Assembly (NCBI GenBank): GCA_038087875.1
Contig: CM075988.1
Span: forward strand, 20,648,001 to 20,712,000
Source of the DNA: Malacoraja senta
Taxonomy: Eukaryota
Reading direction: 5' to 3'
Length of the DNA stretch: 64,000 bases
Shown one piece after another: positions 4,151 to 52,359 of this stretch. The position numbers and the translations under genes were made by a program. The notes under the pieces were generated by a model. It was not told the origin of the DNA, ran no database searches, and saw only the letters and a program-made list of their open reading frames with translations. Position 1 is the first letter of the stretch, and every line of letters starts with the position of its first letter.

Positions 4151-6092
4151 CATGGATAAGCGATGTAGTTTAGTTGAGTTTAGTTTAGAGATACAGCGTG
4201 GAAACAGGCCCTGCAAGCGACCGAGTCCACGCCGAACAACAATCACCCCGTAAACTACAGTAGTTCTATCCTACACTCTTGGAACAATTTACAGAAACCA
4301 ATTAACATACAAACCAGAGCACCTGGAGAAAACCCAATGCGGTCACAGGGAAAACATACAAACTCCAATCAGACAGCACCCATAGTCAGGATCGAACCTG
4401 TAAGGCTGCAACTCTACCACTGAGCCAATGTGCTTGGGTCGGGACCCTTTTTCAGAGTGTTTGAGATGTGGGGAGAGAGCAAGCTGGAACGTGAGGAAGG
4501 ATGGTACAAAACATGGCGAATGATCGGGTATAAGTAAATGAATCTTCCTTTTAACTGCACCCTACTCACAGTTTTACTCCCGGGGTTGAGTTATAGCGTA
4601 GCAATTCAAAATTGATCACACGCATTGTTGGTTGGGTGTGACCTTGTACCCAATATCAGATGACATCTTCCTATTTCTTCGTCCATCTCTTCAAACTTAT
4701 CCATCCTGTGGCTGAAAATGGTTGAAAGACTCAGTGAGAAGAGGAGAGCTTTGCGAATGGAATGCTCTCCCGCTTTTCAACGAGACTTTCAGCCATTTTC
4801 TGACGTGCTAGAAGTTTGAAATGTGTGATTTTGATTAAAAACAATGTTGACCAAAATCTCTTTAAAATTACAGCGCCGTTATTTGACACTATGTGTGATT
4901 GTGTTGAAAGGATTTATGATTTGGTGGAGAGCTTGGCAAGGCTCGTTAATCAAAACCCACGAGAGAGTTAAAGGTTGCCCTGTGAAAGTTCAACATTTTC
5001 ATCATTATGTGTCGGGCCAGTTATATTTAACTTTTCCTAAACAAACAACACATTATTTCTTTGTGTCGATGAATTGGCAGATTGAAAATGAAAGGAGCCA
5101 CCAAATGGAATTCCCTTTTTCAGCAGGGATAGAATAAGATGAAAATACAGTGATGGAGGTGTGAGACGTAGAAGAGTACAGCACAGGAACAGGCCCTTCG
5201 GCCGACGATGTCTGTGCCGAACTTATTGCCAAGACCAACCCTTATCTGCCTGCTCATGAAACAGAACCCTCCATTCCCTGCATATCCTTGGGCATATCTA
5301 AAAGCCTCTTCCTGTAAATGCCTCTATCGTATCTGACTCCACCACCACCCCTTGCAGCATGCTCCATGCACCCACCACCCTCTGTGTAAAAAAACCAAGC
5401 CTTACACATCTCCTTTAAACTTTGTCCCGCTGACCTTCAGACCCAGTCCGAAGAACGGTCTTGACCCGAAACGTCACTCATTCCTTCTCTCCAGAGATGC
5501 TGCTTGTCCCGCTGAGTTACTCCAGCATTTTGTGTTTATCTTCAACCTTAACTCTATGCCCTCTAGTCTTTGACATTTCCACCCTGAGAAAAAGGTTCTG
5601 GACCTCTGCCCTATCTGTGCCTCGCATCATTTTATAAACTTATATCAGGCATCCCCTCAACCTCCAGCATTCTCGAGAAAACAATCCGAGTTTGTCCAAC
5701 CTCTCTTGGTAGCTAATACCCTCCAACATCAAGGCAACATAATCCTCCTCATTGCTTTCACTTTCAACAGCGTTGACCAGTTCTCTGCGACTGTGAATTA
5801 AACCAACCGAACTCAAATGCCTGAAGAAGGGGCCCGACCCAAAATATCACCTATTCATTTTCTCCAGAGATGCTGCCTGACCCACTGAGGTATTTCAGCA
5901 TTTTGTGTCTATCTTTGGTCTAAACTAGCATCTTCACTTCCTTTTTATTACTAATTCAAATCCCATTGCCTGGAATGTTTTTTGAGAACAAGGTAGGTTA
6001 GCAGAGTGACATACTTTCTTTGATTGTTGGGGGGGTTGGGTTGAGGCATGTGTCTAATGGGGGTGGGATGCCAATGATAGTAACATATCAGT

Positions 6093-9635: not shown

Positions 9636-11062
9636 ATAGAAACATAGAAACATAGAAAGTAGGTGCGAGAGTAGACCACCAGGCCCATCGAGCCCGCACC
9701 GCCATTCGCTCATGGCTGAACACTAAACAGACACCCTTACCCACAAACAGTAGACACAAGACACAGAACACAAGACACTACCCTCCCCTTTATATCGCTA
9801 TCACCCCTCTCCACCCCAAGAACCGCGTGATCTCCTGGGGGAGGCAAAAAAACGGATAAAAACCCAGGTCCAATTCGGGAAAAAAATCCGGGAAATTCCT
9901 CTCCGACCCCAATCCAGGCGATCGACACTTGTCCAGGAGATCACTCAGGTCTTACTATACTAACCATACCTAGGTCCATATCCCTGCCCTCTCCCCGTAG
10001 CCCCTTATCCCCTTGGCAGCTAAAAAACCATCTATTTTAGACTTAAATATATTTAATGTTTCTGCTTCCACTGCTCCCTGGGGCAGTGAATTCCATAAAT
10101 TAACCACCCTCTGGGTGAAGAAGTTCTTCCTCATCTCAGTTTTAAAAGAGCCCCCTCTTATTCTACAACTATGTCCCCTAGTTCTAGTTTCCCCGATCAT
10201 TGGGAACATCCTCGGTGCATCCACCCGATCAAGGCCCCTCACGATCTTATATGTTTCAATGAGATCGCCTCTCATTCTTCTAAACTCCAAAGAGTAGAGT
10301 TCCAGCCTACTTAACCTTTCCTCATATGTCAATCCCCTCATTGCAGGAATTAATCTTGTAAACCTTCGCTGCACTGCCTCCAGGGCCAGTACATCCTTTC
10401 TTAAGTATGGACCCCAGAACTGTACACAGTATTCCAAATGTGGTCTCACTAATACCGTGTACAGCTGTAGCAAGACCTCCGTGTTTTTATACTCAATCCC
10501 CCTAGCAATAAAGGCCAAAACTCCATTGGCCTTCCTGATTGCTTGCTGCACCTGCATACTAACTTTTAGTGATTCATGTACTACTACCCCTAGATCCCTT
10601 TGCGTTGCATTACAACGCAGCTCCACCTCATTTAGAAAATAACTTGCCCTATCATTTTTTTTCCCAAAGTGAATGACTTCACATTTATTAGTATTAAATT
10701 TCATCTGCCAAGTTGTTGCCCACTCACCTAGCTTATCTATATCCTTTTGCAGACTCTTCCTATCCTCCTCATCCCCTACTTTTCCTCCCATTTTTGTATC
10801 GTCCGCAAATTTTGATATATTACACTTGGTTCCCTCCTCCAAATCATTTATATAAATTGTGAACAACTGGGGTCCCAGCACCGACCCTTGCGGAACCCCG
10901 CTAGTTACCGGTTGCCATCCCGAGTATGAACCATTTATCCCCACTCTCTGCTTCCTATTTGTTAGCCAATCCTCTACCCATGCTAATATATTACCCCCAA
11001 TCCCATAATTTTTTTTATTTTTTGCAATAGTCTCTTATGTGGCACCTTGTCAAAAGCCTTTT
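9636..11062 (-). mobile_element. Young 5'-truncated CR1-clade LINE, distinct subfamily with long structured 3' UTR
   Basis: Open RT ORF 9970-10944 (SGVPQGSVLGP..FADDTK..LVRPHLEYC..FFTQRVVNLWNSLP). Upstream KAFDKVPH joined across a probable A-run frameshift near 11010-11023. (TTTCTATG)n tail at 9636-9658. Inserted in an old Rex1-like fragment. Confidence 0.93.
9970..10944 (-). pseudogene. CR1 ORF2 reverse transcriptase C-terminal portion (5'-truncated)
   Basis: 324 aa open frame with RT motifs GVPQGSVLGP and FADD. Confidence 0.9.
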
Positions 11063-13812: not shown

Positions 13813-14380
13813 GAAACCCACTACTATTTTACTTACTTTAAGTCTGAAGAAGGGTCTCAACCCGAAGCGTCACCCATTCCTTATCTCCAGCGATGCTGCC
13901 TGTCTCGCTGAGTTGCTCCAGCATTTTATGCCTTATTACTTTAATGCGTGTTAGGGTGTCACACACCTCCTACAAGGTAGAGGGCAGCATTGACTGGGCG
14001 AGAGGTTTAATCAGCAGTGCCAGTGTAATGACCTGAGATTAGGAGCTCAATGTAAATCTGGTTCCTCGGTGGCCCCATGGGATTCCTCCTTCCTCCACCA
14101 GGATCCATCCTGTGGCCCAGCTTTGGACTGAATGAACAAACCCAACACGCACGAGGCAGAGAGTTTTCACAGGATAACCACGCCTTTAATGCACGGTTAA
14201 TGCAAGGATATTACACTCTCGACAAAAAAACCCCCCCACAAAGTACCGGAATAACTCAGTGTGTCAAGCAGCATCTCTGGAGAACATGGATAGGTGAGCC
14301 ACATGTGGACTAGGTATTCCAGTGTGATATATCTTGAAAATACTTTAATTTAGCTACCTCTAACATTGTCCTCAGGCTTG

Positions 14381-14434
14381 GGGGTGGGAGATTGCAACCT
14401 TCACGTGGTCCGCCCTGTTTCAACGAATGCAATC
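14381..14434 (+). ncRNA. Minimal HDV-like self-cleaving ribozyme (essentially no P4) at the 5' end of a mini-retroposon
   Basis: Nested double pseudoknot paired by hand. P1 GGGGTGG 14381-87 with CCGCCCT 14410-16 (G1.U wobble). P2 GATTGCA 14390-96 with TGCAATC 14428-34. P3 ACC 14397-99 with GGT 14407-09. L3 TTCACGT 14400-06. G14417 available for P1.1. J4/2 CGAA 14424-27, putative catalytic C14424. Activity not tested. Confidence 0.85.
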
Positions 14435-14517
14435 AACCTGGCGTGCACAATCAAACAAGATCAAATAGAACAAGTTGTTCTACAACTTTAGGCTGTGCAC
14501 GCCGTATGCAAGAAGAA
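14381..14517 (+). mobile_element. ~137 bp non-autonomous retroposon: ribozyme head, stem-loop body, (AAG)n tail; probably mobilised by an Ingi/Vingi- or RTE-type LINE
   Basis: Perfect 11 bp TSD GTCCTCAGGCT (14368-78, 14518-28). Tail ...GTATGCAAGAAGAA(G). Body stem GGCGTGCACA 14440-49 / TGTGCACGCC 14494-503 encloses hairpin TAGAACAA-G-TTGTTCTA 14466-82. No pol III A/B boxes. Partner LINE is inferred. Confidence 0.85.
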
Positions 14518-17500
14518 GTCCTCAGGCTCTGCTTTCGGGGGCTCAGGAAGGATGGTTGGACAGGTCAACATGGACAAGCTGGGCCGAAGAGCATGTTTCC
14601 ATGCTGAATGACTATATGACAATGATGCCACACAGAAGACCATTTGGCCCATAACTCTTGTGCTAGACTTTATGAAGGAGCTCACGATATAACCTCATGC
14701 GCTGTGCTTCACGACACATGTTTCTCTGCATACCCATGAACTTATTCCAGTCCAGAACATTATCTACTTCCACGTTGAAAGTGCGTGCCTGAACTTCATC
14801 CACCTTTTTAGTTAGCACGCTCCAAATCACAGAAACTCCCTGGATTATTGCAAATCATATTGTCATCTTCGTCAATGACAATACTTCATTTAAAATATTT
14901 AAGACAATAAAGCCTATCCAACCATTAATGAATAGTCTCTGATTCTCCAGTCTCACTTCCTTGTTATTCTGATGGGTTTTTTCACATTGTGTCCATTTAA
15001 AAACCAAATAGAGTAAGAAGTAAAAGATGAAATTCTTCCAAATCGTTTTATTTGGACATTGTTGTTTGGCCTCTGCAATAAATGAATGACATGCCAGTTG
15101 ACTACAGTGAATTAACCCTGGTGTAAATAAATGGCAAAAGAATTAAATGGAGGTTGACAGTACGAGAGAGAATAAGTTGATTGTAGACATAGAGCTATGC
15201 AGATGGTAACAGGCCCATCTCTCCCATTGCCCCACCACCCTATTCCCCTTCTCCCCATCCCATTCCACCTATAATCCCTTCACCTGGTTTCACATTTCAC
15301 TCTTTTAGTTTAGAAATACCGCGTGGAAACAGGCCCTTCAGCCCACTGAGTCTGCGCCGACCAGTGATCAACCATGCACTAGTTCTATCCAATTCTGTCC
15401 CTGCAGCCCATTCTGCCAGCCCATACTCATGATCAATACCTGATTGCAATCTTTATTAATTGGAGTTCCTCCGTATATTCAAAACTATTTTGTGCGTGAA
15501 GATAAAGCAGAGGTTGATGTTAATGTCAGGGCCAGCACAGGGTTTAAGGAATGGATCTAATAGCCAAGCCCTTGACCACTCAGCTCAGTCCGTGATCACC
15601 AAACCACATGGCTTTGGAATGTGTGATGTGTATTTGGGGTTGCACAGTGGTGCATGGTAGAGCTGCTGCCTCACAGCGCCAGAGACCCGGGTTCGATTCT
15701 GACCTGGGATGTCGTCTGTGTGGAGTTTGCACATTCCCCCTGTGGCCACATGCATTTCCTCCAGGTGCTCCAGTTTCCTCCCACAGCCCAAAGACGTGCA
15801 GGGTTTGTAGGTTAAGTGGCCCTCTGTAAATCGTCCCCTAGTGTGCAGGCAGTGGATGTGACGGTGAGACAGAATAGAGCTATTGTGAACGGGTATTCGA
15901 TGGCTGGCTAAAGGGCCTGTTTCCATGCTATATCGCTAAACTAAACTACCCAAAACTCTCGGAAACTGAGCTAAGTCGTAGCTAACTCAGAGTTAAGCGG
16001 CAGCTGAAGAAAAGGATTGTTATAATGAAGCAGCTGATGAGCAATGTTGCTTGGAACCCTCCAGAGAATAGGGCAAGCAGGAAGGCATGCATCCCAAATG
16101 TGGAATGTTCTGCATCTGCTGGATATCTATAAATACTTTCACAGATGATAAGTTATCTCCATGCGAGGCACCAGTTACTGAGGAGAGTCCTGTGTTCTAG
16201 CAGTGGATTATTATGAGGTTAAAGTCTTGCGTTCCAGGAATAACTACACATTTGCAGTCACATTACTGGTGAACCTTGGGGTTGTTGTGTAACTGGGACT
16301 TTAGAATGTTTGAAGCTGCCTTACATCAAGATACTGAATGTGCAAAAAAGCATTTGTTGTTTTTGTTGAGACAATGTGCTTATAGATACAGGAAACGTCC
16401 GGACTTATCAAACAGACAGACCACAGGGCAGCGCAGAAGGAATTAAAGAGTAGGATTTCACAACCCACCAGGGGTTGGGTAACGTGTGCCTGAGACACAA
16501 AATGGTGTCAGGAACATTAAATCTGCCATCATTCTCATGCTCAAACTCAGGACTTTTCGGCCTTCCAGGGTTTGAGGTGCAGAGAGCTAGCATAGAAGAA
16601 GAAAGGTTTTATTCCACAGGTTTCTGAACGGCCCTTCCAAAAGCTAGGTTACTGTCTGATTCACCTCTACACCATTGCAAACATTGGACTTTGTCTATGA
16701 AACTAATGCACTACAATGCTGAGAACTATATTCTGCACTCTGTTTCTCTCCATTTGCTCTATCTATTATACTTATATTACACTGGTTAGCACGTAACAAA
16801 AAACTTTTCACTGTACCTCAGTACACCTGACAATAAACTGAACCAAACTAAATTTGGGTTTGACTTGATTGGATGTGTTGATGTGCAGTATGATCTGACT
16901 TGATTGGAGAACATGCAAAACAAAGCTTCTCACTGTACCTTGGTACTGAAAATAATAAACCTTGACCTAAACCTGTTAAAATCAATCACTACAGTCTTTT
17001 GTGTCAAGTTACAAAGAAATCCTAATGTTAGGGGCTAGCCAATTGATAGTGAGAGCATATCAACAGAGGTGCTTCTTCTTACAGTACATACAGAACCCAC
17101 ATCGCCCTCATGGCAAGATCCTGATCCTACATCATGAGCTTATAAGTTTGTGTTCATAAGTCACAGGAGCAGAATTAGGCCATTAACCCATTGAGTCTAC
17201 TCCACCATTTGTTCATGGCTGATCTATCTTTCCCACTCAACCCAATTATCCTGTCTTCTCCCTGTAATGGACAATAGACAATAGGTGCAGGAGTAGGCCA
17301 TTCGGCCCTTCGAGCCAACACCGCCATTCAATGTGATCATGGCTGATCATCCCCAATCAGTACCCCGTTCCTGCCTTCTCCCCATATCCCCTGACTCCGC
17401 TAATTTTAAGAGCCCTATCTAGCTCTCTCTTGAAAGCATCCAGAGAACCTGCCTCCACCGCCCTCTGAGGTGGTCTTTGCTAATTAAGAACCTTACTAAT

Positions 17501-17742: not shown

Positions 17743-18837
17743 AAGGATACAAAAGACAAAGCCAGGTCATTTCTGAACATCTGCTGGCAGGGGCTATTCC
17801 CCACAGGTAATGCCTATACTGCTCAACCAAGCTTGGAAACTTTAGCAGCTTATTTGTAGTTTAACAGAGTCATAGAGTCATAGAGCAAAGAAACTGGCCC
17901 TTTGGCCCAACCCGCCCATGCTGATCAAGATGCCCCTTCTAAGCTAGTCCCATTTACCTGTTTTGGCTCAAATTCCTTTCCTATCCATGTACCTGTGCAA
18001 ATGTCTTTTAACTATTAATATTCTTCAGATCACGTTCAGGGCCCTTTGATTATTTACATTGGCTGTCATGTTCTTTGGAACACGCAGTTTTCTCAATGCG
18101 TATGTACCATAATCCCATTAGTCAAGAGAGTCTTTGACGTTCCAGCTTCTCAAACAACATAATAATTTTGAAGAAATTCAACTTTGCACCAAGAACTTAG
18201 AGACTCAACAAATAAATTTCTTTAAGAGTGTTGTCTTGTAAATAAAGCTCTATCTCTTGAGTTATAAGTTTACTTGATCTCGATACATTCATGGAGACAT
18301 TACAATTCTGGTAAACTGGAATTTGTTGAAACTGTTCTGTGTCTAAATTCACACCATTCTATTCACCCATCACCAGTTGCTTTCTGATGATATTTGGTTG
18401 TTGGTTAAAGTCCTTGACTTTAATATAATAATTCGCAATTGTAGATTCTCTCCGTTGTTTAACGCCTCTCTGCTTTTGCAATTTCCTCCAGGCTTAAAAG
18501 CCTCCGACATCAATGTGCTTTTCCAAATCTGTCAATTTAAACAAAACTCAAAATGCTGGAGGAGCTCAGTGGGCCAGGCAGCATCTGTGGAGGGAATGGA
18601 CAGGAGGCACGTTGGATCAGAACCCTTCTTCAGAGTGAAGAATTGTCTCAAAGTGAAACGTCACCTGTCCATTCCCTCCACAGATGCTGCCTGAACCACT
18701 AAGTTCCTCCAACACTTTGTGCTTTGGTCAAACATCTGCAGTTCTTTGTGTCTGTCATCTTAAAGGTTCTCAAAGTCCTTCACTCCAGTACCATGGGCAT
18801 GTCTTCAGCTCCAAGTGGCCAAGCTCTGGAGTTGCCT

Positions 18838-19402
18838 CCATAACTGCGTACAGTTTTGGTCTCCAAATCTGAGGAAGGACATTATAGCCATAGAGGGAGT
18901 GCAAAGAAGGTTCACCAGACTGATTCCTGGGATGTCAGGACTTACATATGAAGAAAGACTGGATAGACTTGGCTTATACTCGCTAGAATTTAGGAGATTG
19001 AGAGGGGATCTTATAGAAACGTACAAAATTCTTATGGGGTTGGACAGGCTAGATGCAGGAAGATTGTTCCCGATGTTGGGGAAGTCCAGGACAAGGGGTC
19101 ACAGCTTAAGGATAAGGGGGAAATCCTTTAAGACCGAGATGAGGAAAAACTTTTTCACACAGAGAGTGGTGAATCTCTGGAACTCTCTGCCACAGAGGGT
19201 AGTTGAGGCCAGTTCATTGGCTATATTTAAGAGGGAGTTAGATGTGGCCCTTGTGGCTAAAGGGATCAGGGGGTATGGAGAGAAGGCAGGTACGGGATAC
19301 TGAGTTGGATGATCAGCCATGATCATATTGAATGGCGGTGCAGGCTCGAAGGGCCGAATGGCCTACTCCTGCACCTATTTTCTATGTATCTATGTATCTA
19401 TA
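18838..19402 (+). mobile_element. CR1/HER1-like LINE 3' fragment (young)
   Basis: CVQFWSPNLRKDIIAIEGVQRRFTRLIPG..FFTQRVVNLWNSLP to stop at 19303; 3' UTR with GGGCCGAATGGCCT stem and (TCTATGTA)n tail. Confidence 0.92.
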
Positions 19403-33482: not shown

Positions 33483-35167
33483 ATAGAAACATAGAAACAT
33501 TGAAAATAGGTGCAGGAGTAGGCCATTCGGCCTTTCGAGCCTGCATCGCCATTCAATATGATCATGGCTGATCATCCAACTCAGTATCCTGTACCTGCTT
33601 TCTCTCCATACCCCCTGATCCCTTTAGCCACAAGGGCCACATCTAACTCCCTCTTAAATATAGCCAATGAACTGGCCTCAACTACCTTCTGTGGGAGAGA
33701 ATTGCAGAGATTCACCACTCTCTGTGTGAAAAATGTTTTCCTCATCTCCGTCCTAAAAGATTTCCCCCTTATCCTTAAACTGTGACCCCTTGTTCTGGAC
33801 TTCCCCAACATCGGGAACAATCTTCCTGCATCTAGCCTGTCCAACCCCTTAAGAATTTTGTACGTTTCTATAAGATCCCCCCTCAATCTTCTAAATTCTA
33901 GCGAGTACAAACCGAGTCTATCCAGTCTTTCTTTATATGAAAGTCCTGACATCCCAGGAATCAGTCTGGTGAACCTTCTCTGTACTCCCTCTATGGCAAG
34001 AATGTATTTCCTCAGATTAGGAGACCAAAACTGTACGCAATACTCCAGGTGTGGTCTCACCAAGGCCCTGTACAACTACAGTAGAACCTCCCTGCTCCTA
34101 TACTCAAATCCTTTTGCTATCAATGCTAACATACCCTTCACCTTCTTCACTGCCTGCTGCACCTGCATGCCTACTTTTAATGACTGGTGTACCATGACAC
34201 CCAGGTCTCGTTGCATCTCCCCTTTTCCTAATCGGCCACCATTCAGATAATAGTCTACTTTCCTGTTTTTGCCACCAAAGTGGATAACCTCACATTTATC
34301 CACATTATACTGCATCTGCAAATGCCCACTCACCCAGCCTATCCAAGTCACCTTGCAGCTTTGTCCAATGATTGCACCACTTTCCAAATGTGCTGCTATC
34401 CCATCTTTAATAACTGATTCTAGCAGTTTCCCCACTACCGACGTTAGACTAACTGGTCTGTAATTCCCCGTTTTCTCTCTCCCTCCCTTTTTAAAAAGTG
34501 GGGTTACATTAGCTACCCTCCAATCCTCAGGAACTACTCCAGAATCTAAAGAGTTTTGAAAAATTATCACTAATGCATCTACTATTTCTGGGGCTACTTC
34601 CTTAAGTACTCTGGGATGCAGCCTATCTGGCCCTGGGGATTTATCGGCCTTTAATCCATTCAATTTACCTAACACCACTTCCCGGCTAACCTGGATTTCA
34701 CTCAGTTCCTACATCTCATTTGTCCCCCCGGTCCCCTGCTATTTCCGGCAGATTATTTATGTCTTCCTTAGTGAAGACAGAACCAAAGTAGTTATTCAAT
34801 TGGTCTGCCATGTCCTTGTTCCCCATGATCAATTTCTGATCTGTTTCTGACTGCAAGGGACCTACATTTGTTTTAACTAATCTTTTTCTCTTCACATATC
34901 TATAAAAGCTTTTGCAGTCAGTTTTTATGTTCCCTGCCAGTTTTCTTTCATAATCTATTTTCCCTTTCATAATTAAGCCCTTTGTCCTCCTCTGCTGGAC
35001 TCTGAATTTCTCCCAGTCCTCTGGTAGGCTGCTTTTTCTGGCTAATTTGTACGCTTCATCTTTTGCTTTGATACTATCCCTGATTTCCCTTGTTATCCAT
35101 GGATGCACTATCTTCCCTGATTTATTTTTTTGCCAAACTGGGATGAACAATTGTTGTAGTTCATCCA
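33483..35167 (-). mobile_element. CR1/HER1-like LINE, 5'-truncated, with internal deletion of the RT core
   Basis: ORF pieces 34716-35168, 34076-34678 (KSPGPD.LHPRVLKE..NYRPVSLTSVVGK) and 33581-34075. Jump near 34360 removes the QHGF..FADD region. TAGAAACA tail. Confidence 0.92.
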
Positions 35168-38100
35168 TAGGGTTATCCGGGAGATTCTGTACAAACTAAT
35201 GCAGATGGTGTCATTGTTATTATATTCTTGTAAGAGAAATAAGTATTTCTGTGGATCCCTCTCCAAACATCAGTGAATAGTTCTTGGATTATGTAAACAT
35301 TGTTACAGTTATTATTTGAACTAGAAACATGTTCTGTTGAAATAGCTCCCTGATAGAGGCAACACAAGTAGACCGAGTGGTACATATACGGTGTATGGTG
35401 TGCTTGCCTTCATCGGTCAGGGCATTGAGCATAAGGGTGACAGGGATTATGGGGAGAATGCAGGAGAATGGGGTTAAGAAGGAACGATAGATCAGCCATG
35501 ATGCAATGGTAGAGTAGGCTTGATGGGCCAAATGGCCTAATTCTGCTCCTATCACTTATGAACATGAACTTTTATAAGTCAGAAAGTCATGATGTAGAAA
35601 GAAAGAACTGCAGATGCTGGTTATACCAAAAATGCTGGAGTAACTCAATGGGTCAGGTAGCATCTCAGGAGAAAAAGGATAGACCCGAAACATTGTCTAT
35701 CCTTTTTCTGCAGAGATGCTGCCTGACCCGCTGAATTACTCCAGCACTTTGTGTCTATCTTCAGAAAGTCTTGTTGCAGTTTTATAGGACTTTGGTTTGG
35801 CTGTATTTGGAACATTGTGTATAGTTCTGGTTGGCCTGTGACAGGAATGATGTGAGGCTTTGGGGAGGGTGCAGAGGAGTTTTAGCAGAGGTTTACCAGA
35901 ATGCTGACTGGGTTACAGTGTAAAGGGACCAGTGATGAACGCAAAACCATTGGAGGATAGTTGGATGAACAGTCCATTTGGGTTTCGGCCCGAAATGTTA
36001 CCTATTTCCTTCGCTCCATAGATGCTGCTGCACCCGCTGAGTTTCTCCAGCATTTTTGTGTACCTTCCCCAATATATTTATCAGATTACACATCCACTTT
36101 GGATTTGTTTTCCTCTGTGCAAAGCATAAATCCTCAGTTGGAAATTGGGTGTGAGGGGATTGTGGGTCACTAACGCATGTGACAATAAACTAAACTAAAC
36201 CTCTGACTGGAGAATCTAGATATTTTAGATCATTGCCTGATCGATGAACATGAAACTTCTCCTTGGGATCAGTCCTGCATCTATGTTCAGTGCCAACTCA
36301 TGATTTCTGGTGGTTCAATTTTGTTTATGGTTCAACAAAACCATCTCAAAAAAGTTCCCATTCATTGTAAACTTTAACGTGAGAGGGGAAAGATTTAATA
36401 GGAACCTAAGGGGCAATGTTTTTACACAAAGGCTGGCGCGTACATGGAACGATCTGCCAGAGGAATTGCACCCATTACAACATAAATACATTGGGTTATA
36501 TCTTGCACTCCCACAGGGCTTTAAACCTTATGAAGGAAAAAAAATAATATTTACTAATTTCTTGTCAGGAGTGACCAACTTTGTTGAAACCTTCCTGAAA
36601 CAATTACATGATAGTAATCCCTAAAAACATGCAATGAAGGAAAAGTATCCTTACGATTTAAGATAAATTCTCTGGGGGCCGAGAGGATGGGTTTCACAAT
36701 AGAAAGCATCGAAATATAATTGTATTTTGAGTGGGAGAGAATGCTTGCTGATTGAAAGCCCCTGCTGAGAAGTGGGGATGTTGGTTTCAGTAGGGAATGG
36801 CCAGTGTAGGGATTGAGAGACAGCTACATTGCAGCAAGCCCTGTAATACTATGCCTTCTTGGCAAAGCATTGACAAGCTATGTGACTGCTCCGGAAATCA
36901 GTCATTATAAAGAAGGTTCTGTTCCATAACAACAAATTGCTTCATGTTATTTCATGCGTTGTATGCATCTTTATCTGCATCTAATTGCCTTAATGCCTTC
37001 AGCCAGAATATTTTCACTCAGTTCCTCCAACTGGACTCACACAAACTTTCTTTGGAAGACATCATGTCTGTGAGCTGCATATGATTGTCTGGGTCTCCGA
37101 CCTGATGTGTGTTGGCTTTCTCCAGGTCAGTGGGGATGGGACTATCTAACAAGCAGAATGTGCGGGCCGTCACGCCCGAGTGTTGAAAGTACAGCGACCA
37201 CCCACAACCTCACCATCTCTGCCAGAAGCACTGGCACTGTCTCTGGCAAACAGAGGCTCATCAGATGGCTGATCTGAAATGGGGTTCATACATCAAACAG
37301 GTACATCTATGGAACTTTATTTGTCACATGTGCCGAGGTACAGTGAAATTCATTTTTGTACACAGTTCAGTACAAGTATCACTATACATAAGCACTTAGA
37401 TATATCTTAGATAAGCTTCTCAGATACACTGGAAGTGTGTAGCAGTAGTTCGCTAACACAGTATACAGAGTCACCAGTTTGGCGCTGTTTTCCTGTCCCC
37501 GTTGTTTTGGTGGTGTTGAAGGGTCAGCCTGGCTAAGTGTAGCTGTGGTGTCCTCCGCCGCTGCTCCACCATCATAGGCCATGTGCAGTCGGGCAGATTC
37601 AGGGGTGATACGATGGACAAAGGAGGTGGCAATGGGTGATGACTCTACAGAGTTGGATTTGGACATGGGAATAGGCAGGGGTTCTCAAGCAAAGCAAAAA
37701 GATACCAGATGCAGATGTCCACCAGAGAAGGTCCCACCATCATTTTCAGTGGTGGATACCTCAGCAGTAGCTCAATAAGAACAACTCTCAAAAACCTCTT
37801 CAGCCTTCAGGCCTGTCAATTTTTTTCCATTTGAGACCCATCCACTTTATAGATGTGGAAGCATTGCAGCAATGACATAAAAGTAGGAATCTCACTCTGA
37901 ACATCTCCGTCCTGCACTCAGACCAATGGATGTTTGGAGGACTATCCTCTTGGATTTACGAGGATATTTCCAAGACTCAAGGGCCTGAGCTATAGGGAGA
38001 GGTTGAGCAGGCTGGGACTTAATTCCTTGGTGCGCAGGAGGATGAGGGATGATATTACAATGACAAAATCATGAGAGGTATAGATCGGGTAATTGAGAAA

Positions 38101-51100: not shown

Positions 51101-51819
51101 CAATTTGCTTGCAGATATTTAATGCATTGATCATGCTTCTCAAATGATACATTTTACACATGATGCACTTTCTACATACAAACCCTGTTTTGACTGAAGT
51201 GTAGACCCCGTGTATTCTTTAGAATGAACACAGAGTACATTGATTACGTGCTGGGGGCTGTAACTGACAACTGACTAGTTGGCGGCACGGTGGTGCAGCA
51301 GTAGAGTTGCTGCCTTACAGCACCAGAGACCCGGGTTCGATCCTGACCACAGGTGCCGTCTGTATGGAGTTTGTACGTTCTTCCCGTGACCGCGCAGGTT
51401 TTCTCCAGGTGCTCCAGTTTCCTCCCACACTCCAAAGACGTACATGTTTGTAGGTTAATTATCTTTGGTAAAAATTGTAAACTGTCCCTAGTGTGTAGGA
51501 TCGTGTTAGTGTATGGGTATCGATGATCGGCACGGACCCAGAGGGCCGAAGGGCTTGTTTCCGTGCTGTATCTCTAAATTAAACTAACTGGACAAAAGCA
51601 GAAGTTTAATACTTCAATCAAATGGATCATGTGCAGAGATCTGATTTCCTAGTTTCTCCTTCACGACCAGAAGCTGATTCTTGTGGAAGATAGTCCTAAT
51701 GTACGGGGCGAACGCTGGGCGGTGTGGACTCGATGGGCTGAAGGGTCTGTTTCCGTGCTGGATCTCTAAAGTCTAAAGCCTGAAGTCTACAGAAGGCAGC
51801 TGATATCGTCAAAGAACCA

Positions 51820-52359
51820 CATCTGAGGAAGGACATTATAGCCATAGAGGGAGTGCAGAGAAGATTCACCAGACTGATTCCTGGGATGTCAGGACTTTCA
51901 TATGAAGAAAGACTGGATAGACTCGGCTTATACTCGCTAGAATTTAGGAGATTGAGAGGGGATCTTATAGAAACTTACAAGATTCTTATGGGGTTGGACA
52001 GGCTAGATGCAGGAAGATTGTTCCCGATGTTGGGGAAGTCCAGGACAAGGGGTCACAGCTTAAGGATAAGGGGGAAATCCTTTAAAACCGAGATGAGAAA
52101 AAACGTTTTCACACAGAGAGTGGTGAATCTCTGGAACTCTCTGCCACAGAGGGTAGTTGAGGCCAGTTCATTGGCTTATATTTAAGAGGGAGTTAGATGT
52201 GGCCCTTGTGGCTAAAGGGATCAGGGGGTATGGAGAGAAGGCAGGTACGGGATACTGAGTTGGATGATCAGCCATGATCATATTGAATGGCGGTGCAGGC
52301 TCGAAGGGCCGAATGGCCTACTCCTGCACCTATTTTCTATGTATCTATGTATCTATGTA
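51820..52359 (+). mobile_element. CR1/HER1-like LINE 3' fragment, same subfamily as 18838-19402
   Basis: Near-identical to the 18838 copy, including ATGGGGTTGG, CCAGGACAAGG and the (TCTATGTA)n tail. Confidence 0.92.

What the first reader, a model, noticed from the sequence alone, without database searches (positions are those of the whole stretch)
14368..14528. Mini-retroposon headed by a 54-nt minimal HDV-like ribozyme
Seen: a 137 bp insert with an 11 bp TSD and AAG tail. Its first 54 nt form all HDV pairings (7 bp P1 with G1.U, 7 bp P2, 3 bp P3, L3 TTCACGT, CGAA J4/2), but P4 is reduced to ~5 nt. The element starts 2 nt (TG) after the TSD, exactly at the predicted cleavage site. Established: HDV-like ribozymes make the 5' ends of R2, some RTE and trypanosomatid L1Tc/ingi elements and their short derivatives (NARTc/RIME/SIDER); P4-less forms are mostly known from microbial/phage sequence. 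Inference: a promoter-less vertebrate ribozyme-SINE that cuts itself out of host read-through transcripts and is copied in trans by an Ingi/Vingi- or RTE-type LINE.
Basis: partly seen in the sequence, partly recalled or inferred. Interest (0 to 1): 0.88.

Follow-up and report, generated by a model that had tools for sequence, protein, structure and literature searches.

The report
Ribozyme-headed mini-retroposon and its LINE
A 137-base mobile element, present in thousands of copies in what looks like a cartilaginous-fish genome, is a cut-down copy of a roughly 3.1 kb LINE, and both begin exactly at the predicted cut site of a very small HDV-like self-cleaving RNA of a form so far reported almost only from gut phages.

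Summary
Window 14381-14517 is one copy of a young, high-copy retroposon: at least 3426 candidate copies, the 40 scored being 96-100% identical. It has an 11-bp target-site duplication and an (AAG)n tail.

Its first 54 nt satisfy every pairing of a P4-less HDV-like ribozyme. The domain layout equals that of published phage "theta"/minimal HDV-like ribozymes, and the core motifs are almost identical.

Most copies start at G1, the predicted cleavage site. TSDs abut G1 in 40 of 63 copies that have an exact TSD.

I found the autonomous partner. It is a LINE of about 3.1 kb with a single ORF (endonuclease plus reverse transcriptase), RTE-like in size and architecture. In 4 of 7 copies examined, its 5' end carries the same ribozyme, 106 nt upstream of the ATG. 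Its last ~50 nt match the retroposon's tail.

The element is therefore a short internally deleted LINE, analogous to Drosophila R2 "SIDEs", and not a pol III SINE.

Self-cleavage itself is untested. There is no compensatory covariation, Rfam gives only a non-significant hit, and P1.1 has one Watson-Crick pair.

Verdict: a new variant of a known kind, namely a ribozyme-processed non-LTR element with a minimal ribozyme core in a vertebrate. Interest is moderate to high.

The parts
14368..14378 (+). left target-site duplication GTCCTCAGGCT
   Evidence: 11 nt, 100% identical to 14518-14528
14379..14380 (+). two extra bases (TG) between the TSD and element base 1, a 5'-junction addition specific to this copy
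   Evidence: offset +2 in this copy; 6 of 63 copies with a TSD have offset +2, 22 have offset 0
14381..14387 (+). P1 5' strand; predicted cleavage is immediately 5' of G14381
14388..14389 (+). J1/2 (GA)
   Evidence: 1-3 nt in the published theta ribozymes seen
14390..14396 (+). P2 5' strand GATTGCA
   Evidence: complementary to 14428-14434
14397..14409 (+). P3 (ACC/GGT) enclosing L3 TTCACGT; C14402 is the predicted P1.1 partner of G14417
   Evidence: the same 13-nt motif is in phage theta ribozymes
14410..14416 (+). P1 3' strand CCGCCCT; position 14412 is G or A in the family and pairs with U5 either way
14417..14423 (+). G14417 (P1.1), U14418, and a 5-nt linker (L4) in place of P4
   Evidence: L4 is 5-8 nt in the published minimal forms seen
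14424..14427 (+). J4/2 CGAA; C14424 is the predicted catalytic cytosine
   Evidence: the second base varies G/T/A in the family while C is kept
14428..14434 (+). P2 3' strand TGCAATC; end of the 54-nt ribozyme
14435..14479 (+). body derived from the LINE 5' UTR, diverged in this subfamily. It holds the 5' arm (14440-14449) of a 10-bp stem with 14494-14503, and an inner hairpin 14466-73/14475-82
14480..14509 (+). module shared with the 3' end of the partner LINE: its last codons, the TAG stop and a short 3' UTR
14510..14517 (+). (AAG)n tail
14518..14528 (+). right target-site duplication

Best explanation
Window 14381-14517 is one copy of a non-autonomous retroposon made by internal deletion of a LINE of about 3.1 kb, RTE-like in size and architecture.

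It keeps two parts of the LINE:
- the 5' end: a 54-nt P4-less HDV-like ribozyme plus part of the 5' UTR, up to and including the ATG in the oldest subfamily;
- the last ~50 nt: the final codons, the TAG stop, a ~30-nt 3' UTR and the (AAG)n tail.

Proposed cycle:
1. (inferred) Copies lying in transcribed DNA are read through by host polymerases.
2. (inferred from fold, conservation and copy ends) The ribozyme folds co-transcriptionally and cuts 5' of G1. The RNA is freed from upstream host sequence and has a fixed first base.
3. (shown: shared 3' module, variable TSDs of 7-16 bp, microsatellite tail) The LINE's endonuclease/reverse transcriptase recognises the shared 3' module and copies the RNA by target-primed reverse transcription.
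4. (shown) Full-length cDNA reaches G1, so each new copy carries an intact ribozyme.

In the LINE the ribozyme sits 52 nt upstream of the start codon. As reported for other ribozyme-headed LINEs, it may also help translation of the uncapped RNA (inference from the literature).
For: Family and ends
- 3426 candidates; 40 of 40 scored are 96-100% identical; 27 of 40 alignments start at G14381.
- Of 78 copies, 63 have an exact TSD of at least 7 nt. The TSD end abuts G1 in 22 and overlaps it by 1-3 nt of microhomology in 18.
- In four other runs, coded as four organisms, similarity to the window stops at 14381. X21 has 439 loose ends at 14381 against 57 at 14379. X23 has 528 at 14381 against 96 at 14380. 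On the 3' side similarity stops mostly at 14518.

Fold
- All HDV-like elements are present. The descriptor is rare in shuffles: 1 full hit in 860.
- The only Rfam match at E<=10 that resembles a ribozyme is an HDV model. It aligns end to end on exactly 14381-14434.

Likeness to validated minimal forms
- The layout P1 7 | J1/2 2 | P2 7 | ACC | T | NN | ACGT | GGT | P1' 7 | 2 | L4 5 | C-N-A-A | P2' 7 equals the delimited theta-ribozyme layout.
- The LINE/older-subfamily core (ACC-T-TC-ACGT-GGT ... TTCGA-CTAA) matches some of those ribozymes almost base for base (PMC10879173 supplementary file 5, parts 1 and 355).

Conservation
- Between subfamily majority sequences the ribozyme differs at 1-3 of 54 positions and the body at 6-25 of 51-54. 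The 3' module differs at 0 of 18.
- The three variable ribozyme positions are 32 (G/A, pairs with U5 either way), 42 (in L4) and 45 (the N of C-N-A-A).

Partner LINE
- The ribozyme continues into the 5' UTR, an ATG at +107 and the endonuclease ORF in L093, L097, L098 and L099, that is 4 of 7 LINE copies examined.
- LINE 3' ends L089, L091 and L092 share the tail module.
- Exo_endo_phos_2 and RVT_1 domains are present.
- Relatives are ~1000-aa proteins on 3.2-3.3 kb contigs.

No pol III head
- No tRNA. No tRNA, 5S or 7SL Rfam match, even at E<=10.
Against: - No cleavage data, and no run on record as RNA was available.
- No compensatory (two-sided) covariation. The ribozyme is nearly invariant, so its pairings are not tested by evolution.
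- The Rfam score is 14.4 bits against a gathering score of 44, E = 2. There was no hit at gathering level and none at E<=10 for the LINE copies L098 and L099.
- The 54-mer is no more stable than shuffles: z = +0.61, and 139 of 200 shuffles fold at least as well.
- P1.1 has one Watson-Crick pair (C22-G37) plus a U.U, where the theta ribozymes I saw have two pairs. U38 is invariant in 78 of 78 copies.
- My descriptor was written after seeing the sequence.
- A related LINE family (48% identity) shows no such motif in 630 nt upstream of its endonuclease.
- No intact ORF of the partner family was seen among the copies scored. The longest open frames were 438 and 457 aa of about 1000.
Confidence: 0.7

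Rival explanations
1. The 5' module is a structured LINE 5' UTR that does not cleave, for example an internal promoter or a protein-binding or translation element. The sharp 5' end at G1 then reflects a transcription start.
For: No covariation. The Rfam score is not significant. P1.1 is weak. The trypanosomatid L1Tc head is described as both promoter and ribozyme (PMC3383444, abstract seen in the listing), so a promoter function at such a head is not exotic. Some copies carry an extra 5' G (9 of 40 start one base upstream), as capped RNAs can give.
Against: The chance of meeting all HDV-like constraints is about 0.001 per window, and the predicted cut site coincides with base 1. The core is nearly identical to minimal ribozymes reported as self-cleaving in vitro. 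No pol III-type head was found. A review states that ribozyme-bearing RTEs lack their own promoters (PMC6765202, passages read).
Confidence: 0.18
2. The HDV-like drawing is a coincidence. The head is simply conserved LINE 5' sequence, and copies are full length because the element is short.
For: My descriptor would give a few tens of chance hits in a genome of this size (extrapolated). The thermodynamic z-score is unremarkable.
Against: A chance hit would also have to fall on base 1 of the family and reproduce the P3-L3 and L4-J4/2 motifs of published minimal ribozymes. The head is far more conserved than the adjoining 5'-UTR-derived body: 3 of 54 against 21 of 54 differences.
Confidence: 0.08
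3. A conventional pol III SINE (tRNA-, 5S- or 7SL-derived), or a DNA-transposon MITE.
For: Short, high copy number, flanked by TSDs.
Against: No tRNA was found. There is no tRNA, 5S or 7SL match even at E<=10. There are no terminal inverted repeats; the only inverted repeats are internal. TSD length varies from 7 to 16 bp and the 3' end is a microsatellite tail. Both ends are those of a LINE.
Confidence: 0.02

Closest known systems
R2 SIDEs (Short Internally Deleted Elements) of Drosophila (Eickbush & Eickbush 2012, PMC3414825; abstract and outline read)
   Same: A non-autonomous element made by joining a LINE's 5' HDV-like ribozyme to its 3' end. The parent's TPRT machinery copies it, and the ribozyme defines the 5' end.
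   Different: R2 SIDEs are site-specific in rDNA and are described as rare examples of non-autonomous elements in Drosophila. This element is dispersed with variable TSDs, has thousands of copies, has an RTE-like parent, and its ribozyme lacks P4.
HDV-like ribozymes at the 5' ends of RTE and baggins LINEs (Ruminski et al. 2011; known to me only through reviews PMC6765202 and PMC7761336, passages read; the paper itself is not held)
   Same: A ribozyme heads a promoter-less RTE-type LINE just upstream of the ORF, with proposed roles in 5' processing and translation initiation.
   Different: I could not see which hosts and ribozyme forms that paper covers. Here the host looks like a cartilaginous fish and the ribozyme is the minimal P4-less form. 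PMC7761336 also reports truncated twister ribozymes, a different fold, at RTE 5' ends.
Minimal HDV-like ribozymes (drz-Mtgn) and theta ribozymes of gut phages (Kienbeck et al. 2024, PMC10879173; sections 7 and 13, passages, and supplementary file 5 parts 1 and 355 read)
   Same: The domain-by-domain layout and length (54 against 51-58 nt) are the same. The P3-L3 motif is identical and the L4/J4/2 motif nearly so. The catalytic C is the first base of J4/2.
   Different: Theta ribozymes sit at tRNA 3' ends in Caudoviricetes phages. That paper states that nearly 99% of theta and minimal sequences were confined to phages. Here the ribozyme heads a vertebrate retrotransposon, P1.1 has one Watson-Crick pair instead of two, and P1 starts with G.U.
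L1Tc / NARTc / SIDER Pr77 hallmark of trypanosomatids (PMC3185411, PMC4035085; listing abstracts only)
   Same: An HDV-like ribozyme lies in the first ~77 nt of a LINE and of its truncated non-autonomous derivatives.
   Different: Those are ingi-clade elements in kinetoplastids, and the same 77 nt also act as a promoter. No promoter evidence was obtained here.
Twister-variant ribozymes in Schistosoma non-LTR elements (PMC8501958; listing abstract only)
   Same: A self-cleaving ribozyme linked to non-LTR retrotransposition.
   Different: A different ribozyme fold and host.

Membership tests
HDV-like (delta-like) self-cleaving ribozymes | Nested double pseudoknot: P1, P2, P3 and P1.1, with the cleavage site at the first nucleotide of P1 (PMC4908430, passage read) | tested here: met
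   P1 7 bp, P2 7 bp and P3 3 bp are read. P1+P3 is the MFE. The descriptor hits only at 14381 in the window. [quoted passage not shown]
HDV-like (delta-like) self-cleaving ribozymes | Catalytic cytosine as the first base of J4/2, directly before the P2 3' strand | tested here: met
   C14424 in CGAA. C is kept while the next base varies G/T/A among subfamilies. C is present in 75 of 78 copies, but 30 of those loci were selected with a pattern that fixed this base.
HDV-like (delta-like) self-cleaving ribozymes | Site-specific, metal-dependent self-cleavage | not testable with these tools
   Indirect only: copy 5' ends fall at G1.
HDV-like (delta-like) self-cleaving ribozymes | Match to a curated Rfam model at its gathering score | tested here: not met
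   0 matches at gathering level. The best is RF02682 at 14.4 bits against 44, E = 2. None at E<=10 for L098 and L099. The matched model contains a P4 that is absent here.
HDV-like (delta-like) self-cleaving ribozymes | Pairings supported by compensatory covariation | tested here: inconclusive
   Only three variable positions were found; one (32) is a one-sided G.U to A-U change. No diverged relatives could be fetched.
Minimal (P4-less) drz / theta ribozyme motif | Layout P1 6-7 | J1/2 1-3 | P2 7 | RCC | T | NN | NCGY | GGY | P1' | 2 | L4 5-8 | C-N-R-A(N) | P2' 7, as delimited in PMC10879173 supplementary file 5. I derived it from the rows seen; the descriptor figure itself is a picture and could not be read. 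| tested here: met
   The window reads 7 | 2 | 7 | ACC | T | TC | ACGT | GGT | 7 | GT | 5 | CGAA | 7.
Minimal (P4-less) drz / theta ribozyme motif | Two-base-pair P1.1 | tested here: not met
   TC against GT gives C-G plus U.U. All theta rows I saw pair both bases. U38 is fixed in 78 of 78 copies.
Minimal (P4-less) drz / theta ribozyme motif | Theta in the strict sense: cleavage site within 5 nt of a tRNA 3' end in a phage | tested here: not met
   No tRNA at 14200-14700. The context is a eukaryotic retrotransposon.
RTE-clade LINE (partner element) | Compact element of about 3.2 kb with one ORF of about 1000 aa (N-terminal AP-type endonuclease plus reverse transcriptase), a very short 3' UTR and a simple-repeat tail. 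This description is recalled. | tested here: met
   By my arithmetic on the coordinates, G1 to tail spans about 3.1 kb on C1:194.04 Mb. Exo_endo_phos_2 and RVT_1 are present. The TAG stop lies ~30 nt before the (AAG)n tail. Relatives are ~1000 aa on 3.2-3.3 kb contigs. This is pieced together from decayed copies, not from one intact copy.
RTE-clade LINE (partner element) | Phylogenetic placement of the RT within the RTE clade | not tested
   No clade-labelled reference set was available. The source names of relatives are generic.
SINE in the strict sense | Internal pol III promoter derived from tRNA, 5S or 7SL | tested here: not met
   The element is better called a SIDE-type internally deleted LINE.

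The most novel reading that the evidence does not exclude
Minimal P4-less HDV-like ribozymes are not a phage speciality. They are native 5'-processing modules of RTE-type retrotransposons in vertebrates. The near base-for-base identity of the catalytic core (P3-L3 and L4-J4/2) between this fish LINE and gut-phage theta ribozymes would then reflect common descent or horizontal exchange, not convergence. That would give an origin for the 'orphan' minimal ribozymes first found in metagenomes.

A corollary: 54 nt of ribozyme plus ~50 nt of LINE tail is enough for a promoter-less element to reach thousands of copies.
Probability: 0.2. Interest if true: 0.8.

Novelty: new variant of a known kind. 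Interest (0 to 1): 0.6.

Why it matters
Ribozyme-headed LINEs and their internally deleted derivatives are known (R2 and its SIDEs, RTE, baggins, L1Tc/NARTc). The mechanism is therefore not new.

Three things are new, as far as my searches show (searches found no description):

1. The ribozyme is the minimal P4-less form. The 2024 theta-ribozyme paper says the origin and function of minimal forms remain to be determined, and that nearly 99% of theta and minimal sequences were confined to phages.
2. The host appears to be a cartilaginous fish, and the family is young and abundant in this genome. The element is also high-copy in four other runs, coded as four organisms.
3. The derivative is only 137 nt long and still has thousands of copies, which sets a lower bound on what a ribozyme-processed retroposon needs.

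If the ribozyme is active, it would be a compact ribozyme native to a vertebrate, and it would give a clear biological role for a minimal HDV-like ribozyme.

Dfam and Repbase could not be consulted, so the repeat family itself may already be catalogued under another name.

Tried and rejected
RNA evidence
- The look-up of sequencing runs listed no RNA holder.
- All four runs laid were contigs, which cannot show RNA starts. No place 'where many molecules begin or end' was reported.

Searches for the LINE using patterns with 'not-this-base' positions
- One search found 1 match only.
- One search was mis-specified by me: only G61 had to differ, so it returned 49 SINE variants.
- (134 matches, 100 listed) gave SINE copies with small indels and no recurrent alternative continuation.
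- The LINE was found instead from its 3' end and by protein search.

LINE stretches that did not help
- L092 turned out to be a 5'-inverted, truncated LINE copy and gave no 5' end.
- L096 was cut too short, because an insertion displaced the 5' end; L099 completed it.
- L100, L101 and L102 held no ribozyme. Either those copies are 5'-truncated or my coordinate estimates were off.

Sister LINE family (48% identity, intact ORFs of 863-886 aa)
- No HDV-like motif in 630 nt upstream of the endonuclease.
- A different 3' end. It is neither a source of covariation nor the partner.

Other
- Earlier findings of this scan: none, by place, sequence or words.
- Ruminski et al. 2011 could not be read.
- The theta-ribozyme descriptor figure is an image. 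I inferred the layout from delimited sequences in supplementary file 5.
- I did not build a covariance model from the published phage sequences, because sequence from outside the window and loci is not to be typed into tools.
- A tRNA/pol III SINE and a MITE were considered and rejected.
Full report
WHAT IS AT THE COORDINATES

The 11-nt direct repeat GTCCTCAGGCT lies at 14368-14378 and 14518-14528. Between the repeats are two extra bases (TG) and a 137-nt element, 14381-14517, that ends in AAGAAGAA(G).

Counting G14381 as base 1, the first 54 nt read as follows:
- P1: 1-7 with 30-36, 7 bp, with G1.U36 and U5.G32.
- J1/2: 8-9.
- P2: 10-16 with 48-54, 7 Watson-Crick pairs.
- P3: 17-19 with 27-29.
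- L3: UUCACGU, 20-26.
- G37 can pair with C22 (P1.1).
- A 5-nt linker, 39-43, stands where P4 would be.
- J4/2: C44-G-A-A.

ViennaRNA's minimum-energy structure of the 54-mer is exactly P1 plus P3. The same holds in the full 137-mer, where the rest forms a separate long hairpin with arms 14440-49 and 14494-503. P2 is a pseudoknot and cannot be predicted by that program. The energy is no better than that of shuffles: z = +0.61, and 139 of 200 shuffles fold at least as well.

IS IT MORE THAN CHANCE?

I wrote a descriptor after seeing the sequence, so it is post hoc. It requires G1.U, a 7-bp P1, a 3-bp P3, a 7-nt L3 with U1, C3 and G6, a G after P1, C-N-R-A, and at least 6 bp of P2 abutting P3.
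- In the window it hits once on both strands, at 14381.
- In 860 dinucleotide-preserving shuffles of the window it gave 60 'core' hits and 1 full hit.
- That is about 0.001 expected per window, or some tens of chance hits in a 1.9-Gb genome.

The motif alone would therefore not be convincing. What counts is where it sits.

Rfam gives limited support. It finds nothing at gathering level in the whole window. In permissive mode the best of three weak matches is an HDV ribozyme model, RF02682. It aligns end to end on exactly 14381-14434, but at 14.4 bits against a gathering score of 44, E = 2. That model contains a P4.

A REAL, YOUNG, ABUNDANT FAMILY WITH A FIXED FIRST BASE

The window lies in a 1.94-Gb assembly. 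A DNA search with 14379-14517 found 3426 first-look candidates. All 40 scored were 96-100% identical. Their alignments start as follows:

| Start relative to G14381 | Alignments (of 40) |
|---|---|
| At G14381 | 27 |
| One base upstream (an extra G) | 9 |
| Two bases upstream (one is the window itself) | 3 |
| One base inside | 1 |

The window holds only this one copy.

I examined 78 distinct copies in the fetched loci. Of these, 63 have an exact TSD of 7-16 nt. The offset from the TSD end to G1 is:

| Offset | Copies (of 63) |
|---|---|
| 0 (TSD ends directly before G1) | 22 |
| -1 to -3 (overlaps G1, microhomology) | 18 |
| +1 or +2 (the window copy is +2) | 11 |
| +3 to +6 (several are TSDs with a mismatch near the junction) | 12 |

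The remaining 15 copies had no exact TSD of at least 7 nt.

These loci were not a random sample:
- L002-L030 were the best matches to the query.
- L032-L061 were selected with a pattern that fixed ribozyme bases 33-54.
- L062-L091 were anchored only on the 3' module, so they are unbiased for the head. Of these 30, 26 are copies of the element carrying the head (some with internal deletions, one 5'-truncated) and 4 are something else.

Contigs of four further public runs, coded as four organisms, also hold the element at very high multiplicity. Their similarity to the window stops at 14381. Loose ends are X21 439 at 14381 against 57 at 14379, X23 528 at 14381 against 96 at 14380, X1 46 and X3 9. 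On the 3' side it stops mostly at 14518. Contigs break at repeat borders anyway, so this shows the family's borders in other genomes. It does not show RNA ends.

THE PARTNER LINE

Four of the 30 loci anchored on the 3' module were not the short element. L089 and L091 carry an ORF end with a Cys/His motif that runs into the shared module. That C-terminal peptide has 3735 first-look candidates in the genome, and 150 of 150 scored were at E <= 8e-38.

L092 supplied reverse-transcriptase and endonuclease pieces: RVT_1 at E = 8e-9 and Exo_endo_phos_2 at E = 3e-8. L071 gave RVT_1 at E = 2e-13.

The endonuclease piece finds about a dozen places at 60% identity or more. One of them, on C1 near 194.04 Mb, also has the C-terminal match 2.4 kb downstream.

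I fetched short stretches upstream of seven such copies. Four hold the ribozyme, followed without a break by a ~52-nt leader, an ATG 106 nt after G1, and the endonuclease ORF:
- L093: interrupted after base 8 by a ~50-nt foreign insertion and preceded by a run of extra G.
- L097: an inverted copy lacking the first 11 nt.
- L098: starts at G2.
- L099: starts at A9.

The other three stretches (L100-L102) held nothing recognisable.

In the frame that makes TAG a codon inside the shared 3' module, L089 and L092 read through the last 17 or more codons to that stop. About 30 nt of 3' UTR remain before the (AAG)n tail.

By my arithmetic on the coordinates, the LINE is about 3.1 kb long with one ORF of roughly 1000 aa. 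Its relatives in the protein collection are ~1000-aa endonuclease-RT proteins on 3.2-3.3 kb contigs. The named ones come from insects, an ascidian and a crab.

That is the RTE pattern as I recall it. I did not place the RT in a phylogeny, so 'RTE-like' is by size and architecture only. Nothing pointed to Ingi/Vingi.

No intact ORF of this family was seen among the copies scored (longest 438 and 457 aa). Only 150 of 3735 and 132 of 896 candidates were scored.

HOW THE SHORT ELEMENT RELATES TO THE LINE

Three subfamilies are visible.

The oldest-looking one, B (10 copies in hand), is the LINE's first ~87 nt, minus a 14-nt stretch. This covers the ribozyme and the leader up to and including ATGCCAC. 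It is joined to the LINE's last ~50 nt.

The window's subfamily, A (50 copies in hand), has a remodelled body. In it the leader-derived segment forms a perfect 10-bp stem with the tail module.

Differences between subfamily majority sequences:

| Region | Differences |
|---|---|
| Ribozyme | 1-3 of 54 positions |
| Body | 6-25 of 51-54 positions |
| 3' module | 0 of 18 positions |

The only ribozyme positions that vary, in this genome and at 10% or more in the other four runs, are:
- 32 (G/A), which pairs with U5 either way;
- 42 (A/G), in the linker;
- 45 (G/T/A), the free N of C-N-A-A.

This is the pattern expected if head and tail are the functional modules. It contains no two-sided compensatory change.

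Of the 78 copies, 43 still satisfy every element of the descriptor when read without gaps.

COMPARISON WITH KNOWN MINIMAL RIBOZYMES

Supplementary file 5 of Kienbeck et al. 2024 (PMC10879173; parts 1 and 355 read) lists theta ribozymes cut into their descriptor regions:

P1 6-7 | J1/2 1-3 | P2 7 | RCC | T | NN | NCGY | GGY | P1' | 2 | L4 5-8 | C-N-R-A(N) | P2' 7.

The window element reads:

7 | 2 | 7 | ACC | T | TC | ACGT | GGT | 7 | GT | 5 | CGAA | 7.

The LINE and subfamily B read TTCGA | CTAA in the last two core regions. Several phage entries carry the very same ACC-T-TC-ACGT-GGT, and TTTCG(A)-CTAA.

The one departure is P1.1. The phage entries pair TC with GA. Here TC faces GT, giving C-G plus U.U, and U38 is invariant in 78 of 78 copies. 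[quoted passage not shown] It remains the weakest point of the fold.

Kienbeck et al. state three things (passages and section 7 read):
- minimal forms lack P4;
- their origin and function 'remain to be determined';
- nearly 99% of theta and minimal sequences were confined to phages.

Their eukaryotic set was small.

WHAT IS KNOWN ABOUT THE KIND

A review (PMC6765202, passages read) says that HDV-like ribozymes head R2, L1Tc, baggins and RTE elements. It says the latter have no promoter of their own and are transcribed from introns or from upstream elements, and that some non-autonomous SINEs use such ribozymes.

Another review (PMC7761336) adds truncated twister ribozymes at RTE 5' ends.

Eickbush & Eickbush 2012 (PMC3414825, abstract) describe R2 'SIDEs', in which a 5' ribozyme is joined to an R2 3' end. 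That is the closest analogue.

The primary RTE paper, Ruminski et al. 2011, is not held. I cannot say which hosts and forms it covers.

My searches found no description of a P4-less HDV-like ribozyme on a eukaryotic retrotransposon, nor of this family. Dfam and Repbase could not be consulted.

HOST

A CR1-like ORF in the window (9970-11034, minus strand) has its best named relatives in cartilaginous fishes, at 62-70% identity: Chiloscyllium, Hypanus, Leucoraja, Pristis, Mobula, Callorhinchus. That supports 'vertebrate'.

VERDICT

- The element is a SIDE-type derivative of an RTE-like LINE (confidence about 0.95).
- Its head is an active minimal HDV-like ribozyme that sets the 5' end (confidence about 0.7).

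The mechanism is a known one. The minimal ribozyme form, the vertebrate host and the extreme compactness with high copy number make it a new variant of a known kind.

Noticed in passing
L093:1015-1085 (G000:C1, about 194036815-194036885): In this LINE copy the ribozyme is split after base 8 by a ~50-nt insertion that looks like a fragment of a tRNA-derived SINE. G1 is preceded by a run of about 9 extra G.
   Followed up: no
LINE 5' leader (L098:229-238) against LINE 3' UTR (for example L092, tail module); window 14440-14449 / 14494-14503: The leader just after the ribozyme (GACGTGCACA) is complementary to the 3' UTR (TGTGCACGCC), 8 contiguous pairs plus one. The 3.1-kb LINE RNA could therefore pair its two ends. 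In the window's subfamily the stem is a perfect 10 bp. The core is a palindrome (GTGCAC), so part of this is automatic.
   Followed up: partly
L092:4056-5387: This LINE copy has its endonuclease part on the minus strand, abutting its RT part on the plus strand near 5060. This looks like a 5'-inverted (twin-priming-like) insertion. L097 shows a second inverted 5' end.
   Followed up: no
L071 and L074 (G000:C1:59831210-59834242 and C1:111007208-111010240): Unrelated upstream sequence is joined to the same 3' tail module. In L071 it includes an RVT_1 fragment and other repeat-like ORF pieces. These may be further non-autonomous or chimeric users of the same tail.
   Followed up: no
G000:C6:42559301-42562900 and C1:165941231-165944600 (L094, L095, L103, L104): A sister endonuclease-RT LINE family (48% identity) has open frames of 863-886 aa and a different 3' end (attgattg-like). 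No HDV-like motif lies within 630 nt upstream of its endonuclease. More distant families (34-35% identity) have ORFs of up to 1014 aa.
   Followed up: partly
window 9970-11034 (-), 18764-19303 (+), 33581-35195 (-), 51784-52185 (+): Several fragments of CR1-like LINEs share a conserved C-terminal region. The window is repeat-rich, and no Rfam family reaches gathering score anywhere in it.
   Followed up: partly
L062/L063 and L067/L068: These are pairs of element copies with identical flanks, so they are segmental duplications and not independent insertions. L062 and L063 lie about 1.9 kb apart; L067 and L068 lie about 150 kb apart on C1. Copy counts slightly overstate the number of insertions.
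   Followed up: no
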